DNA from: a virus
Length of the DNA: 64,000 nucleotides
Virus record (IMG/VR): IMGVR_UViG_3300025809_002164
Span: 32,001 to 96,000 of that record
Direction: 5' to 3' (one strand)
Below the pieces are notes generated by a model. That model saw only the letters and a program-made list of their open reading frames with translations. It was not told the origin of the DNA and did no database searches. The position numbers and the translations under genes are program-made. Position 1 is the first letter of the stretch; each line of letters begins with the position of its first letter. Shown here one piece after another: positions 3,682-8,520 of the stretch.

Positions 3682-4218
3682 TTATCTATACTGCTCTTGA
3701 AGGAGCCTCCACCTGTCTGAGTCTATAGGCTTAACTCCGCTATTTATAGCATAAATCATGTCTATAACTTCTTCTAAGCTGTTATAGATGTATTTATGTG
3801 GCAACATTCCGAGAAGCCATAAGGGAGTTTTAGATTTGCCTCCCTCCATACTGATAAAAATTGGCTTTTTCATTCTTATAGCGGTTACGATTTCTTCAGC
3901 ACTACCCCAGCTTGCGACTTCGGGGACTAAGTGTGCAACTATGAAGTCTGACCTGTCGACTAAATTGAGGTCGTATGACCTGACTGTTTTCATTCTTTCA
4001 GATACTCTGTCGTATTGCTTTGTCTTCATCCAAGTTTCCATTTCAATTCTGGAAGCTTCATCTTCTTCTACATCTTTAACAAATGGCTTTTTATAGGGAT
4101 CAAAGCAGGTTATTTTGATTTCAGAAAGCTTTTCAGTAACTTCTTCCCTCCAGTTTCTGCCACTTAAGTATTGCATGTGGCCTACTAGGTAGGTTTTTGT
4201 TTTTGATAGTAAGTTCAT
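3682..4218 (-). CDS. Nucleoside 2-deoxyribosyltransferase-like protein / nucleotide N-glycosidase
   Basis: TYLVGHM...NWR...DLNLVDRSD...SWGSAEEI...KKP matches the NDT/DNPH1 fold, including the catalytic Glu region. Confidence 0.7.
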   Translation of the reverse strand: MNLLSKTKTYLVGHMQYLSGRNWREEVTEKLSEIKITCFDPYKKPFVKDVEEDEASRIEMETWMKTKQYDRVSERMKTVRSYDLNLVDRSDFIVAHLVPEVASWGSAEEIVTAIRMKKPIFISMEGGKSKTPLWLLGMLPHKYIYNSLEEVIDMIYAINSGVKPIDSDRWRLLQEQYR

Positions 4219-4231
4219 TTAGATTGGGCTA

Positions 4232-4260
4232 ATTATACTATTTAAATAGTTGAAAGTCAA
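4232..4260 (-). promoter_or_regulatory. Sigma70-type promoter
   Basis: TTGACT-17 nt-TATAAT upstream of the NDT-like gene. Confidence 0.8.
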
Positions 4261-4360
4261 GGAAAAAATTAATTATTTAGATTGTTGAAGTTATCGTCCA
4301 CTTAGTTTTTATTTTTGTTCAGTAAATTTTTTTGAGTATATGCAGTTTATAAAAATTTTA

Positions 4361-4782
4361 TGGTGGAGGTGAGGGGAGTCGAACCCCTGTCCTGAGTGCT
4401 TTCATTAAGACACGTCTACAAGTTTATCTAATTTTTTTTATAGTTATGATATTAGAATCTAACTACCTGTTTCAATTATTTGCCCCCGAATAATCAGTGA
4501 ACTACAGTTTATTAACAAGTAAACCTTTTCTGCTTTTACAGATAGATTACCCCTTATTCTTAATATCTGTGTCAAAAGATAAGAGGTGACAGGTGTTTAT
4601 GCTGCCAGAGCAAGCCTTTGATTCTTGAAACCAAGTCGCTTTGCAGCGAATCGATTTTTAAAACCAAAAGCTTTAACACGGTTTTGAGCGCCATGTGAAG
4701 CTTTGCACTTTTGTATCGAAGCCCAGTGCGTCTCCGACTTGCGGTGAAAAAAATTGACATCAGTCGAATCCAGTACACCCCC
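4361..4782 (-). ncRNA. ssrA: tmRNA, 422 nt; predicted tag (A)GAQNRVKAFGFKNRFAAKRLGFKNQRLALAA
   Basis: 5' GGGGGTGTACTGGATTCGAC and 3' GGGGTTCGACTCCCCTCACCTCCACCA; 7-bp acceptor stem with G3:U70, discriminator A and encoded CCA; PK1 (GTCGGAG/CTTCGAT, GCACT/AGTGC), PK2 and PK4 pairings visible; tag frame 4692-4597 ends LALAA-stop. Confidence 0.95.
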
Positions 4783-4791
4783 AACATAAAA

Positions 4792-4802
4792 TTTCAAAGA
4801 AC
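4792..4802 (-). promoter_or_regulatory. boxA-like antitermination element GTTCTTTGAAA
   Basis: Lies between the promoter and the tmRNA 5' end; resembles rRNA-leader boxA. Confidence 0.6.
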
Positions 4803-4809
4803 TTTAAAT

Positions 4810-4838
4810 ATAATACTTCAAGTTAACAATAAAGTCAA
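4810..4838 (-). promoter_or_regulatory. Sigma70-type promoter of tmRNA
   Basis: TTGACT-17 nt-TATTAT. Confidence 0.8.
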
Positions 4839-4844
4839 GCAAAT

Positions 4845-6134
4845 TTAAACAGGGTTGCCCCAGACTAATAATTTAGGCCTTTCAGGGAAGAAACTTTTGC
4901 CAAAAATAAATAAACCATCGTCTTTGTCGTCAGCTCCTCCAACTGGAACTGTAAAAGTTAAGTTTACGATTTTGTTATCAGATATAGAAGAAGAGAAGCC
5001 TTCGGATGTTAATATAGCTCCCTTTAAGTAGTAAGCCATATTTGTGGCATCTGGAATTAGTGTTCCTTCGCATTCAGAAATAGACCTACAGTCTTCGAGG
5101 CTTAATATTAAATTATGTTTCTTGCTTGAGCATAGTTGAGCAAACAAATTCTCTTCTTTTAAGTAAGATACTAAAGCTTGAACCTGAACCTCAATTGTTG
5201 CTGGAAAGTTTGGAACTCTTGCGAATTCATATTTTCCTCCTAGCCTCCTAATTTTCGTGTTACCTATTGGCATGTTGATAGTAAAGCCTTGTATATGTGC
5301 TCCCCCATTGGAGTACTCATTTAGGCCGCTCAGCTGCCTACTAAAGAAGCCTCCATCATCTAGGTCTATCTTTATGTCGCCAGGCCTTAGGCCTCCCACT
5401 CCGTCCTGTAGGACTATGTCCTCTAAACCGCTTAGAGTCTCATAAACAAAACTTTCATATGTGTCAGGTAAACTAAAGTTTACATTTGGGGTTCCGCAAT
5501 CTTCTACGGGGTTAATTGCTGGAATAGGAAGGTTGCAGGCTCCATAATATGACCTCATGTTAAAAGCTTCAAAGCTTATTCTGGCCTTAGGTATGGAACC
5601 CAACTCAGCAGTTACTGCGTATTGGCTAAGGAATGCATTACCTATACCTATAGTCCTACGTTTCTCTTCCTCGTAGGATAAGTTTGCATTAATTACATCT
5701 CTGCCTTCTGGGGCAACCCCTATGAAAAAGTTCTGACCCATTCTACCCTTCATTGTTAAATGGTGATACAAGGCTTGAGTTTCGCCATCAGTAATAAAGC
5801 CCATTACTTGCTCGTTATATCCATCAGCTAAAAAATACTCGAAATCTATAGTTACATCTGGAGAATCTACGGCAACCTTGGTTGTCCTTGCTATTCTACC
5901 AAATTCATTCGCGTCTTTAAATTGAAGGTTAAATCCGTAATTAATTGCTTGTACTCTATGTAACTGTCTCACTAGATTGCCCGAACAGTCTGTCCATCTT
6001 ATATTTCTTAAGTCACAGCTCGGGTCGTCGGCAGTATTGTCATTAAAATGATAGCCTGTTGCATTAAAACTAGTATATAGAAACTCGTTTCCGTAATTAA
6101 CTCTATTTCTTTTTTCGTACAGTGGGCTTATCAT
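4845..6134 (-). CDS. Putative virion structural protein (possibly tail-tube-like)
   Basis: 429 aa, acidic, beta-strand-rich with two similar halves; function is inference only. Confidence 0.4.
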   Translation of the reverse strand: MISPLYEKRNRVNYGNEFLYTSFNATGYHFNDNTADDPSCDLRNIRWTDCSGNLVRQLHRVQAINYGFNLQFKDANEFGRIARTTKVAVDSPDVTIDFEYFLADGYNEQVMGFITDGETQALYHHLTMKGRMGQNFFIGVAPEGRDVINANLSYEEEKRRTIGIGNAFLSQYAVTAELGSIPKARISFEAFNMRSYYGACNLPIPAINPVEDCGTPNVNFSLPDTYESFVYETLSGLEDIVLQDGVGGLRPGDIKIDLDDGGFFSRQLSGLNEYSNGGAHIQGFTINMPIGNTKIRRLGGKYEFARVPNFPATIEVQVQALVSYLKEENLFAQLCSSKKHNLILSLEDCRSISECEGTLIPDATNMAYYLKGAILTSEGFSSSISDNKIVNLTFTVPVGGADDKDDGLFIFGKSFFPERPKLLVWGNPV

Positions 6135-8520
6135 AACAAATAAAATCTTGATCTAGGTAATCTATGTTTACACTAGAGCTTTCATTATTGATAATAAATT
6201 TAGCTATAGCCACTTCCACTTCATTTTGCATAATTCGCCTAATAGGTCTGCCACCTAAGTCATAACGTATTGTCTCTTTAAGGATATGTTTTCTAGCTTT
6301 TGAGGTCATGTAACATTTGATTCCTTTTTTTGATAATTTGTTTTTAACTTGAGCTAATTCAATATTAATTATTTTAGTTAAATCTTTTTCGGAAAAGTTA
6401 TTAAATAATACTATGCCATCAAACCTATTAACTAATTCCGGACTTAATTTCCTTTTGGCTTCGTTGAATATGCGGTCTTGATTGGAATCTTTGCTATGTA
6501 GAAAACCAACAGAGCCTTTTTTATCAATTAGATCCGCGCCTAAGTTGCTAGTCAAAATAATAATAGTGTTCTTGAAAGACACCTCGTCTCCAGCATTGTC
6601 TGTAAGTCTACCTTCCTCTAAGATTTGAAGTAGAGATTGGAGTACTACTGGGTGGGCTTTTTCAACCTCATCAAAAAGTAATACTGAATGTGGATTCCTT
6701 TTAACTTTCTCAGTCAGAATGCCACCCTTCTCGTACCCTATGTATCCTGGCGACGAGCCAGACATTTTACTCACCGCAGTTGACTCGCTGAATTCACTCA
6801 TGTCAAAGTAGATTAATTTTGAGTCTGAGCCGAAATAATGTTTAGCTAAAGCTTTAGAGGTTAAGGTCTTCCCTACTCCTGTTTTCCCTAGAAATAGAAA
6901 ACTACCTATTGGTCTATGTGGATCTTTCAATCCGCACTGAGATTTGAACAATGAATTTGAGATTTTTGAAATAGCTTCGCTTTGACCTATGACAGATTTA
7001 TTCATTTTACTTTCCAAGCAGAGAAGTTTTTTAGAAGTAGTTTCATTTAAGGATTCTATTGGTATGTCTAGATTTTTAGAAATAATTTCTCTAATATCTT
7101 TTGAGCTTACAGTAGGTATGGCTCTATCTTCTGCCCATTTCTCCATAAGTTTTTTGTATGAATCAAATACTGAAGATTTAATTGAGTTGCTTATCTCATC
7201 ATTAGTTAAAACTTTTTCCATTTTTTTTGCCATGCTAGGCTTCTTGAACGATCTAATTTTAACTGCGGCTCCTGCCTGATCTATTAAATCTATAGCTTTG
7301 TCTGGAAGCTTTCTGTCATTTATGTACTTAACGGATAAGGCAATAGCCTCATTGATCGCAGAGTCTTCATATATGACAGAGTGGAACAGAGAGTAATCTT
7401 CTTTTAGGTTATCTAATATTTTTTTGCAAGTTTTTTCATCTGGCTCATCAAGTTTGATCATTTTGAACCTTCTTTTTAATGCTGAATCTTTCTCGAACGA
7501 TTTTTTATATTCTTCAAATGTGGTAGCCCCAATACAAGTGACTTGACCTTTAGATATATAAGGTTTGAGTATGTTCGCCGCATCCAAGGAACCTTCTGAG
7601 TTTCCAGCTCCAATTAGAGTGTGAATTTCATCAATAAATAAAATAATATTCTTATCTAGAATGACTGCATCTATGAAAGATTTTAATCTTTCTTCAAATT
7701 GCCCTCTATATTTAGTGCCAGCAATCATTGATGATAAATCAAGGGATATTATTTTTTTATTTAATAAATAATCATTGCACTTAAGGGAGACTATTTTGTT
7801 GGCTAAATTTTCAACCAAAGCTGTTTTACCTACTCCTGCATCGCCCACAATTAAAGCGCAAGATTTAATTTTTCTACACAGAGTTTCCTCTAGTTGAGAT
7901 ATATATTTATCTCCTCCAGATATGAAATCAAAATCTCCAGACCTAGCTTGATAGTTTAAATTTGAACTATAACTCTCTATGGCGTCTTTATCAGCTTCAT
8001 TATAGCTGGGTTGATGGGGAGAGTTGGAGCTAGAGAAGTTCATTCCAGGCATATTAATTTCTGGATTATATATAACATCATAAGTTAAAATCTCTTCCAG
8101 TAGAGCTAGAACTCCGTCTACGTTAATATCGCAAGCTAAGAAATAATCGATAATTGGAGATGTTATGTCTGAAAGCATTGCATACAAGATGTGCTCAACA
8201 CTTACATATGAATGATCTTTTTCTGCCGATAGTTGAGATGCGAACTCAAGACAAAATTGAGTATCTCTCCCTAAGGGTATACTTCCTTTAGACTTCTCGT
8301 TCTCTTGGGAGTTATAGTCTAAAGTTTTTACTACTAGGTCTGTAATTTTACTAAAATCCAACTCAAGCTTTTCCGCGAGAAAGGGTAGTAGAAATGTATC
8401 AACTTTTAGAAAAGATAGTAATATATGGTCTAGAGATACCTCGGTGTTCCCAAATTTTTGAGCAAGCGTTTTGGATAGTTGAAGTATTTCTTGGCACCTA
8501 GGAGTGTAGTTTGATGGCAT
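6103..8520 (-). CDS. clpC: ClpC/ClpA-type Hsp100 AAA+ unfoldase
   Basis: Clp_N repeats, Walker A GDAGVGKT and GKTGVGKT, Walker B FIDEIH and LFDEVEKAH, pore loops KYRG and GYIG, VGF ClpP-docking loop. Confidence 0.9.
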   Translation of the reverse strand: MPSNYTPRCQEILQLSKTLAQKFGNTEVSLDHILLSFLKVDTFLLPFLAEKLELDFSKITDLVVKTLDYNSQENEKSKGSIPLGRDTQFCLEFASQLSAEKDHSYVSVEHILYAMLSDITSPIIDYFLACDINVDGVLALLEEILTYDVIYNPEINMPGMNFSSSNSPHQPSYNEADKDAIESYSSNLNYQARSGDFDFISGGDKYISQLEETLCRKIKSCALIVGDAGVGKTALVENLANKIVSLKCNDYLLNKKIISLDLSSMIAGTKYRGQFEERLKSFIDAVILDKNIILFIDEIHTLIGAGNSEGSLDAANILKPYISKGQVTCIGATTFEEYKKSFEKDSALKRRFKMIKLDEPDEKTCKKILDNLKEDYSLFHSVIYEDSAINEAIALSVKYINDRKLPDKAIDLIDQAGAAVKIRSFKKPSMAKKMEKVLTNDEISNSIKSSVFDSYKKLMEKWAEDRAIPTVSSKDIREIISKNLDIPIESLNETTSKKLLCLESKMNKSVIGQSEAISKISNSLFKSQCGLKDPHRPIGSFLFLGKTGVGKTLTSKALAKHYFGSDSKLIYFDMSEFSESTAVSKMSGSSPGYIGYEKGGILTEKVKRNPHSVLLFDEVEKAHPVVLQSLLQILEEGRLTDNAGDEVSFKNTIIILTSNLGADLIDKKGSVGFLHSKDSNQDRIFNEAKRKLSPELVNRFDGIVLFNNFSEKDLTKIINIELAQVKNKLSKKGIKCYMTSKARKHILKETIRYDLGGRPIRRIMQNEVEVAIAKFIINNESSSVNIDYLDQDFICYDKPTVRKKK

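What the first reader, a model, noticed from the sequence alone, without database searches (positions are those of the whole stretch)
4361..4782. Phage tmRNA with a 31-codon, strongly basic tag encoded in a long hairpin
Seen: the predicted resume codon GGC (4692) lies 12 nt after PK1 with A at -4, giving GAQNRVKAFGFKNRFAAKRLGFKNQRLALAA: 8 Lys/Arg, no acidic residues, GFKN twice. The tag RNA folds into a ~58-nt hairpin (4614-4671; GCTTTTGGTTTT/AGAATCAAAGGC outside, TCGCT-GCAA-AGCGA with a GNRA loop at the tip). Established: the E. coli tag is 10 codons, acidic, and ends in the LAA Clp degron. Inference: the extra segment may redirect tagged proteins to another adaptor or protease, or the hairpin may have an RNA-level role.
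Basis: partly seen in the sequence, partly recalled or inferred. Interest (0 to 1): 0.75.

Follow-up and report, generated by a model that had tools for sequence, protein, structure and literature searches.

The report
Phage tmRNA: long tag, built-in hairpin
An uncultured marine phage makes its own ribosome-rescue RNA (tmRNA) that writes an unusually long, positively charged tag, and the extra codons sit in a conserved RNA hairpin that leaves the rest of the coding stretch at normal length, a design found here in this phage family but not in bacterial long tags.

Summary
Window 4361-4782 (minus strand) is a complete one-piece tmRNA (Rfam 97 bits) in a complete 146-kb marine phage. Metatranscriptome contigs from three studies cover the RNA and not its flanks.

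The 31-codon tag (GGC at 4692, net charge +8, ending LALAA) is the correct reading. I collected 55 distinct relatives from uncultured phages. All resume at the same GGC. Their tags have 20-21 codons (29 sequences), 31-33 codons (24) or are long and acidic (2), and length differences are in frame.

The hairpin is under selection as RNA:
- It folds far better than synonymous recodings (z -5.1 in the window; negative in all 36 members tested).
- It covaries across 21 long-tag sequences.
- It always starts about 19 nt after the resume codon and ends about 12 nt before the stop.

Bacterial tags of 16-26 codons show no such structure.

Every related phage record checked also encodes a ClpC-type unfoldase with a ClpP-docking loop. 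None encodes ClpP, and SmpB was sought, and not found, only in the window genome. Whether the unfoldase reads the tag is untested, and the host is unresolved.

This scan has noted the same phage tmRNA family on other genomes. New here are the long-tag clade, the hairpin rule and the expression evidence.

The parts
4361..4782 (-). Phage tmRNA gene (ssrA), one-piece, 422 nt, with G3.U70 acceptor stem, T-arm and encoded CCA
   Evidence: Rfam RF00023, 97.4 bits, full model. Metatranscriptome contigs cover 4364-4773, 4373-4755 and 4502-4773 with no cover of 4200-4360 or 4783-5200.
4810..4838 (-). Sigma-70-like promoter (TTGACT, 17 nt, TATTAT) about 28 nt upstream of the tmRNA 5' end
   Evidence: Consensus scan, 10 of 12 positions. 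Sites of this type are enriched in the genome, 19 against 3.9 +/- 1.5 in shuffles. The assignment is by consensus only.
4705..4742 (-). Pseudoknot PK1 (approximate bounds)
   Evidence: Rfam alignment structure line.
4690..4692 (-). Resume codon GGC (Gly), 12 nt after PK1, A at -4
   Evidence: The covariance model aligns it to the consensus resume codon. The same GGC sits at tmRNA position 88-94 in all full-length relatives. It follows NTACAT in 48 of the 53 members for which this was tabulated.
4597..4692 (-). Tag reading frame, 31 codons plus TAA, net charge +8, ending LALAA
   Evidence: Leu at -3 is written with five different Leu codons across the family.
4612..4673 (-). Hairpin inside the tag frame: 26 bp in three tiers, GCAA tetraloop at 4641-4644. 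It starts 19 nt after the first base of the resume codon and ends 12 nt before the stop.
   Evidence: Fold, synonymous-recoding control z -5.1, covariation in 21 long-tag sequences and constant flanks.
4635..4667 (-). 33-nt (11-codon) segment absent from 20-codon relatives. Its exact placement is ambiguous because GFKN is repeated. It lengthens the hairpin at its tip.
   Evidence: Alignment A1. The long-tag clade has 24 distinct sequences.
4587..4607 (-). Helix 5 with the TAA stop in its loop
   Evidence: RNAalifold on 29 relatives gives 6 pairs, 2 of them with compensatory changes.
6103..8520 (-). Phage ClpC-type Hsp100 unfoldase, 805 aa: N-domain, two AAA+ modules, SVGF loop at the ClpP-docking position
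   Evidence: Pfam. End-to-end match to S. aureus ClpC 6em8, E 4e-164, with SVGF aligned to that chain's FAGF. PHROG 4871. Homologues are present in 5 of 5 further records of the tmRNA family.

Best explanation
This is a working, phage-encoded tmRNA. I infer that it is charged with alanine and delivered by the host's SmpB, AlaRS and EF-Tu, because the phage encodes no SmpB. Translation resumes at GGC. A stalled protein receives a 31-residue (32 with the charged Ala), strongly basic tag ending in LALAA, which is the usual Clp-type end.

The family's ordinary tag has 20-21 codons, and the window belongs to a clade that gained 11 more. In all members the extra codons beyond about ten are folded into a hairpin. 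The hairpin sits exactly where helix 5 begins in ordinary tmRNAs.

I propose that the hairpin is a packaging device. It keeps about 19 nt before and 12 nt after it, about 10 codons in all, as in a standard tmRNA. The geometry from PK1 through the resume codon to helix 5, needed for loading into the ribosome, is then unchanged however long the tag grows. The ribosome's own helicase would open the hairpin during translation.

Shown here: identity of the RNA, its expression, the reading frame, conservation of the hairpin and its constant position. Inferred: the packaging role, use of host factors, and degradation of tagged proteins through host ClpXP or the phage's ClpC-type unfoldase docked on host ClpP.
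For: Identity: Rfam 97 bits. Expression: RNA contigs from 4 runs in 3 studies cover only the tmRNA.

Frame:
- 55 distinct relatives resume at the same GGC.
- Length differences are in frame (3 or 33 nt).
- The tag end is kept through synonymous Leu and Ala codons.

Hairpin selected as RNA:
- All 36 members tested fold better than synonymous recodings, median z -3.8, window z -5.1.
- The arms differ widely in sequence and encoded peptide yet stay complementary.
- In 21 long-tag sequences 90.7% of cells are paired, against 26-47% when the partner is slid.
- There are 20 double-change cells against 9.3 +/- 2.0 in shuffles, 0 of 500 reaching the observed value.

Position: the start is 18-22 nt (15 in one outlier) after the resume codon and the end 10-12 nt before the stop, for tags of 20 to 33 codons. 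In E. coli the resume codon is at 90, helix 5 starts at 108 and the stop is at 120 (PMC1168896).

Control: 24 bacterial tags of 16-26 codons have z -1.4 to +1.5, so they carry no excess structure.

Host dependence: the phage genome has no match to SmpB, ClpP, SspB or ClpS. ClpC with a [VLI]GF loop occurs in 9 of 10 family members aligned.
Against: No experiment shows tagging, and no raw reads give exact RNA ends. The packaging role rests on geometry alone. Cyanobacteriota manage 16-26-codon tags without any hairpin, so a hairpin is not required for a long tag.

Covariation counts are inflated by relatedness, and only 4 of 22 pairs show double changes. A 26-bp hairpin could instead be a protein-binding site, a nuclease shield or a pause element. 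The window's Rfam score is lower than its relatives' (97 against 135-141 bits), partly because of a 21-nt insert in the pseudoknot region.
Confidence: 0.6

Rival explanations
1. The extra basic segment is a private degron. It binds the phage's own ClpC-type unfoldase, or an unknown phage adaptor, so that rescued proteins go through phage ClpC plus host ClpP. The hairpin is secondary. This is compatible with the best explanation for the RNA.
For: ClpC lies two genes from the tmRNA and co-occurs with it in 6 of 6 records, with no ClpP in any. The ClpP-docking loop is conserved. The N-terminal tag part G-N/K-K-x-R-V/I-K is conserved, with synonymous variation at codons 2-3. ClpC N-domains in the family are acidic, -3 to -18.
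Against: Tag charge against N-domain charge gives Spearman -0.49, p 0.15, n 10, with non-independent points. The phage with the acidic tag also has an acidic N-domain. The middle of the tag varies freely in peptide sequence while the RNA pairing is kept. The LALAA end alone would suffice for ClpX-type recognition, from established knowledge of E. coli ssrA.
Confidence: 0.25
2. The hairpin has no function as RNA. It is a by-product of an internal duplication of a peptide repeat (GFKN twice) whose coding sequence happens to be self-complementary (Phe UUY opposite Lys AAR).
For: GFKN occurs twice, and its coding sequence is nearly palindromic. In AT-rich RNA, Lys/Asn codons pair readily with Phe/Leu codons.
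Against: Synonymous recodings of the same peptide fold much worse: 0 of 300 as stable in the window, and all 36 members have negative z. Relatives with unrelated middle peptides keep a hairpin at the same place. Compensatory changes are present. Bacterial long tags lack it.
Confidence: 0.08
3. The hairpin is a shield or a binding site. It would protect the long AU-rich reading frame from a nuclease active during infection, or bind a phage or host protein that controls when the tmRNA is used.
For: Selection on structure is strong. The tip CGCU-GNRA-AGCG is invariant in 21 of 21 stems, with a GNRA loop in 20 of 21. That is more conservation than packaging alone needs.
Against: No candidate partner was found. 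The short-tag relatives have quite different loops and arms, which argues against one sequence-specific binding site across the family.
Confidence: 0.15
4. Translation resumes at a later codon and gives an ordinary short tag, or the gene is a remnant of a tmRNA attachment site that is not used.
For: ARAGORN does not identify the tag. Temperate phages often carry ssrA fragments (PMC9004378).
Against: After the hairpin only five codons (LALAA) remain. The GGC position, the spacing from PK1 and A at -4 are canonical and conserved. The 33-nt difference is in frame. The full RNA is present in metatranscriptomes. The genome has no integrase match.
Confidence: 0.04

Closest known systems
Bacterial one-piece tmRNA (Rfam RF00023; E. 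coli SsrA as the model)
   Same: tRNA-like domain with G3.U70 and CCA, PK1, a resume codon about 12 nt after PK1 with A at -4, a tag ending in ALAA, the stop codon in the loop of helix 5, and further pseudoknots.
   Different: It is encoded by a phage with no smpB. The tag has 31 codons and net charge +8, against 10 codons with an acidic tag in E. coli. A conserved 26-bp hairpin lies inside the reading frame, directly before helix 5. In bacterial tmRNAs no helix in this part of the frame is supported by comparative analysis; only a weak 'helix m' is predicted by energy (PMC1168896).
Published phage tmRNAs: mycobacteriophage Bxz1 group and Bacillus phage G (PMC4131195), two-piece ssrA of Methylophilales phage Melnitz and pelagimyophages (PMC9004378), Maribacter phage Panino (PMC11590407)
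   Same: A lytic or large phage carries a complete ssrA and relies on host SmpB. Marine examples exist.
   Different: No record in the collection of 50,697 phage genomes matches this family beyond the 3' 30-60 nt. This RNA is one-piece, unlike that of Melnitz. In the parts of these papers that I searched I found no hairpin inside the tag frame and no fixed partnership with a ClpC-type unfoldase.
Long basic tags of Cyanobacteriota tmRNAs (for example ANNIVPFARKAAPVAA and ANKKNLFAVPSLKATPARVAVAA)
   Same: Tags of 14-26 codons, net positive, with Phe and Lys/Arg in the middle and an AA end.
   Different: They resume on Ala and carry no excess RNA structure in the frame (z -1.4 to +1.5). There is only weak overall sequence similarity to the phage family (best nhmmer E 1e-13).
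ClpC of Firmicutes (S. aureus 6em8, B. subtilis 3j3s)
   Same: The neighbouring phage protein matches end to end (E 4e-164). It has an N-domain, two AAA+ modules and a hydrophobic-Gly-Phe loop at the ClpP-docking position.
   Different: It is only about 37% identical to the best phage-record homologues and 35-45% identical to ClpC of Bacteroidota and Cyanobacteriota. The middle domain is shorter. It stays below every NCBIfam equivalog cut-off. No adaptor or ClpP gene is in the phage.

Membership tests
tmRNA (RF00023) | Covariance-model score above the curated gathering threshold over the full model | tested here: met
   97.4 bits against 47, model positions 1-374.
tmRNA (RF00023) | tRNA-like domain: 7-bp acceptor stem with G3.U70, T-arm and 3' CCA | tested here: met
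   The 5' GGGGGUG pairs with CACCUCC before ACCA, so G3 lies opposite U. The T-arm aligns with high posterior probability.
tmRNA (RF00023) | PK1 followed at about 10-13 nt by a resume codon with A at -4 | tested here: met
   GGC lies 12 nt after PK1 with A at -4, and is conserved at position 88-94 in all full-length relatives.
tmRNA (RF00023) | Short open frame ending in a hydrophobic A-L/M/V-A-A end, with the stop in the helix 5 loop | tested here: met
   The tag ends LALAA followed by TAA, inside the UGGCAG/CUGUCA helix. Helix 5 has compensatory changes in relatives.
tmRNA (RF00023) | The RNA is made as a discrete stable molecule | tested here: met
   Metatranscriptome contigs from 4 runs in 3 studies cover 4364-4773 and none of the flanks. 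Adapter letters abut 4363. These are contigs, so the ends are approximate.
tmRNA (RF00023) | Alanine charging, SmpB binding and tagging of stalled proteins | not testable with these tools
   This needs biochemistry. The phage genome has no match to SmpB, so a host SmpB would be required.
ClpC-type class I Hsp100 that partners ClpP | N-domain plus two AAA+ modules with lid and D2-small domains | tested here: met
   Pfam Clp_N, AAA, AAA_lid_9, AAA_2 and ClpB_D2-small. Full-length alignment to ClpC structures.
ClpC-type class I Hsp100 that partners ClpP | Hydrophobic-Gly-Phe/Leu loop in D2 at the ClpP-docking position | tested here: met
   SVGF aligns with FAGF of S. aureus ClpC. [VLI]GF is present in 9 of 10 family homologues.
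ClpC-type class I Hsp100 that partners ClpP | Score above an NCBIfam equivalog cut-off (ClpA, ClpB, ClpC-like) | tested here: not met
   The best scores are ClpB 680 against 1232 and ClpA 628 against 993. It is a divergent phage lineage of the superfamily rather than an orthologue.
ClpC-type class I Hsp100 that partners ClpP | Recognition of the tmRNA tag | not testable with these tools
   Only a charge comparison was possible, and it was not significant.

The most novel reading that the evidence does not exclude
The hairpin inside the reading frame is a dedicated RNA module. It lets this phage tmRNA family lengthen and rewrite its tag (20, 31 or 41 codons; basic or acidic) without changing the geometry the ribosome and SmpB need. 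The resulting phage-specific tags, read by the phage's own ClpC docked on host ClpP, would form a rescue-and-degrade channel separate from the host's.
Probability: 0.3. Interest if true: 0.8.

Novelty: new variant of a known kind. Interest (0 to 1): 0.6.

Why it matters
tmRNA reading frames are thought to be kept largely unstructured. The bacterial control here agrees with that.

A large, globally distributed family of marine phages does the opposite. It places a selected hairpin at a fixed point in the frame and varies the tag around it. This gives a simple, testable rule for how much extra coding RNA trans-translation can accommodate. It is also a natural system for asking what a tag's middle part is for.

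The phages carry a ClpP-docking unfoldase but no ClpP or SmpB. They may therefore show how a virus takes over ribosome rescue and protein turnover during infection.

A practical point: ARAGORN misses or misreads these genes, so phage tmRNAs of this kind are probably under-annotated.

Tried and rejected
- **ARAGORN.** Default settings find nothing. Relaxed settings give a wrong tag.
- **BLAST of the tmRNA against cultured or deposited phages.** No family member was found. The neighbouring proteins have no close phage relatives.
- **Scan of 185,579 species genomes with the tag-start pattern.** This is weak evidence only.
- **BLAST of the tmRNA against 300 Bacteroidota genomes.** Only the 3' 30 nt match.
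- **Host assignment failed.**
  - Shine-Dalgarno motifs are not enriched (14% against 11% background).
  - Sigma-70-type promoters are enriched, and the Bacteroidetes type is not.
  - The ClpC is equally distant from Bacteroidota and Cyanobacteriota (35-45%) and has no strong match in 31 Pseudomonadota genomes.
  - There is no psbA in five family genomes.
  - The clues conflict, since GGC resume codons were seen here in Flavobacteriaceae.
- **RNAalifold on the MAFFT alignment of short-tag relatives.** It found only helix 5, because the hairpin register shifts by 1-3 nt between subgroups. I used per-sequence folds and the recoding control instead.
- **Tag charge against ClpC N-domain charge.** Not significant.
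- **A tree of the tmRNAs.** The long-tag sequences fall in one clade together with three short-tag ones. Support values were not assessed, so I draw no conclusion on the number of gains and losses.
- **p429 as a possible adaptor.** It has no Pfam, NCBIfam or PHROG match, and the Atlas points to tail-tube-like proteins. I rejected it as part of the system.
- **Literature searches.** They found no description of this family or of a hairpin inside the tag frame. The library is incomplete.

Full report
**What is there**

Infernal places a full-length tmRNA on the minus strand at 4782-4361 (RF00023, 97.4 bits against a gathering score of 47). The window lies in an IMG/VR virus record of 146,036 bp that CheckV rates complete. 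ARAGORN finds nothing with default settings. With relaxed thresholds it finds the same bounds but picks a wrong frame and reports 'Tag not identified'.

The sequence shows:
- a 7-bp acceptor stem with G3 opposite U, a T-arm and an encoded CCA;
- PK1, then 12 nt later GGC (4692-4690) with A at -4;
- an open frame of 31 codons reading GAQNRVKAFGFKNRFAAKRLGFKNQRLALAA;
- TAA in the loop of helix 5.

**It is expressed**

The stretch is present in marine metagenomes from more than ten studies. In four metatranscriptome runs from three studies the assembled contigs cover 4364-4773, 4373-4755 (two runs) and 4502-4773. Nothing covers 4200-4360 or 4783-5200. Sequencing-adapter letters abut position 4363, two bases inside the CCA end. 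These are contigs, so the ends are approximate. Still, a discrete RNA of the predicted size is what these libraries hold.

A sigma-70-like promoter (TTGACT, 17 nt, TATTAT) ends 28 nt upstream of the 5' end.

**A large phage family fixes the reading frame**

The gene order DnaE, ClpC-like, 429-aa protein, tmRNA, deoxyribosyltransferase-like recurs in related uncultured phages. Pattern scans of viral and metagenome contigs, confirmed with a family HMM, gave 55 distinct tmRNA sequences.

- All resume at the same GGC, at tmRNA position 88-94 in full-length copies. Of the 53 members tabulated (the two acidic ones were read from the alignment), 48 have NTACAT before it.
- Tag lengths are 20 codons (15 sequences), 21 (14), 31 (19), 32 (1) and 33 (4).
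- Two members have strongly acidic tags of 34 and 41 codons.
- Against the 20-codon relative L003, the window differs by one clean 33-nt block, in frame.
- The end of the tag is held at the amino-acid level. Leu at -3 is written TTA, TTG, CTA, CTT or CTG, and the Ala codons vary at the third position.

A later resume codon would leave only LALAA after the hairpin. The 31-codon reading is therefore secure short of mass spectrometry.

The window belongs to a long-tag clade of 24 distinct sequences, which includes contigs named TARA_. Its members carry net charge +8 to +12, and the window's +8 is the lowest.

**The hairpin is selected as RNA**

The fold pairs 4673-4612 in three tiers with a GCAA tip. 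Four lines of evidence show that this is not a by-product of the peptide.

- *Recoding control.* For each of 36 family members I recoded the same peptide with synonymous codons drawn by the phage's own usage. Every member folds better than its recodings (median z -3.8). The window gives -28.7 against -11.4 +/- 3.4 kcal/mol, with 0 of 300 recodings as stable.
- *Different peptides, same hairpin.* The short-tag relatives encode quite different middle peptides, for example KAFGLKAKKL, KAYSPKSESL, SFAPKSEAF, KTFGFRKTAKV and EAFAPSSESL. Each still forms a 10-12-bp hairpin there, sometimes a perfect 12-bp palindrome.
- *Covariation.* Among 21 distinct long-tag sequences, the 22 pairs of the long hairpin are formed in 90.7% of cells, against 26-47% when the partner is slid by 1-3 columns. 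Cells with changes on both sides number 20 against 9.3 +/- 2.0 in shuffles (0 of 500). The covariation score is 0.212 against 0.172 (0 of 500). Relatedness inflates such numbers, and only four pairs carry double changes, so I rate this as moderate support on its own. The compensating changes use synonymous or Lys/Arg replacements, as expected if both peptide and structure are constrained.
- *Bacterial control.* For 24 distinct bacterial tags of 16-26 codons from the phylum Cyanobacteriota, z lies between -1.4 and +1.5. These long bacterial frames are, if anything, kept open.

**A positional rule**

Across tags of 20 to 33 codons the hairpin starts 18-22 nt (15 in one outlier; median 19) after the first base of the resume codon. 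It ends 10-12 nt (median 12) before the stop. The 33-nt gain in the window's clade lengthens the hairpin only: a median of 21 bp in 31-codon tags against 10 bp in 20-codon tags, and 26 bp in the window itself.

The unpaired remainder is about 31 nt, or ten codons. In E. coli the resume codon is at 90, helix 5 begins at 108 and the stop is at 120, which gives 18 and 12 nt (PMC1168896). The hairpin is thus inserted at the point where helix 5 normally begins.

My preferred reading is that it packages the extra codons so that the PK1, resume codon and helix 5 layout needed for loading is unchanged. This is an inference. Cyanobacteriota show that long tags can exist without a hairpin.

The invariant CGCU/AGCG tip, with a GNRA loop in 20 of 21 long-tag sequences, leaves room for a binding or protective role.

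**The protease side**

Two genes upstream lies an 805-aa class I Hsp100.

- It aligns end to end with S. aureus and B. subtilis ClpC (E about 1e-163).
- It has SVGF where ClpC has its ClpP-docking loop.
- It stays below all NCBIfam equivalog cut-offs.
- It is 35-45% identical to ClpC of Bacteroidota and Cyanobacteriota, so it is a phage lineage.
- Homologues are present in all five further family records examined, four of them at least 93% complete, and none has ClpP.
- The window genome has no match to ClpP, SmpB, SspB, ClpS or a tyrosine integrase.

The phage therefore supplies the tag-writing RNA and an unfoldase and must borrow SmpB and ClpP. Whether the unfoldase reads the tag is open. 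Its N-domains are acidic (-3 to -18). The relation to tag charge is not significant (rho -0.49, p 0.15, n 10), and the phage with the acidic tag also has an acidic N-domain.

**Host and the second refutation test**

The host is not identified. The genome lacks Shine-Dalgarno enrichment and is enriched for sigma-70-type promoters but not Bacteroidetes-type ones. It has no psbA.

Among bacteria examined:
- 33 genomes sampled from the phylum of the Flavobacteriaceae genome G001 have tags of 8-10 codons;
- one Marinomonas has ANDENYSLAA;
- Cyanobacteriota have basic tags of 14-26 codons that resume on Ala and lack the hairpin.

I found no bacterial clade with this tag, but I cannot exclude one.

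**Known or new**

Phage tmRNAs are published: the Bxz1 group and phage G (PMC4131195), the two-piece ssrA of Melnitz and pelagimyophages (PMC9004378) and Maribacter phage Panino (PMC11590407). None of the deposited phage genomes searched holds this family.

Earlier notes of this scan saw the same family on about twenty other genomes.

I class it as a new variant of a known kind.

Noticed in passing
window 4845-6134 (minus strand): A 429-aa protein sits between ClpC and the tmRNA, conserved at 43-72% identity in six related loci. It has no Pfam, NCBIfam or PHROG match. The ESM Atlas places it next to clusters in which a minority of members carry tail-tube families (Phage_tube_2, Phi812 tail tube). 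That is an odd location, inside the replication block.
   Followed up: partly
L224:6344-6464 and L216:3862-4003: Two members of the same tmRNA family write long, strongly acidic tags (34 and 41 codons, Glu-rich, ending EMVA/EMAA). These too fold into long hairpins. The tag has switched charge within one phage tmRNA family.
   Followed up: partly
window 4675-4696 (minus strand): ACAUG, spanning -4 to +1 of the resume codon, can pair with CGUGU of codons 5-6. Codon 5 is CGT in 31 of 34 sequences, with no synonymous variation. The only change, CGT to CAT, turns a U.G pair into U-A. This may be a counterpart of the energy-predicted 'helix m' of E. coli, but it hardly varies, so it is neither supported nor refuted.
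   Followed up: partly
window 4485-4505 (minus strand): A 21-nt insertion in the pseudoknot 3/4 region relative to L002 and L003. It probably accounts for part of the window's lower Rfam score.
   Followed up: no
window 4467: Two metatranscriptome runs of one study read T where the window has C. This is a strain variant or an RNA difference; no matched DNA run was laid.
   Followed up: no
whole genome (G000): Sites of the form TTGAC[AT], 16-18 nt, TAnnAT are five times enriched over shuffles (19 against 3.9), while Shine-Dalgarno motifs are at background level. This combination does not fit Bacteroidota promoters and leaves the host open.
   Followed up: partly
L003:5706-5792: In the 20-codon relative a tRNA gene follows the tmRNA by 5 nt. 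The window's genome has no tRNA genes at all by ARAGORN.
   Followed up: no
L402-L431 (Cyanobacteriota genomes): Bacterial tags in this phylum reach 23-26 codons and are basic. Their reading frames fold slightly worse than synonymous recodings, which suggests selection to keep them open.
   Followed up: partly
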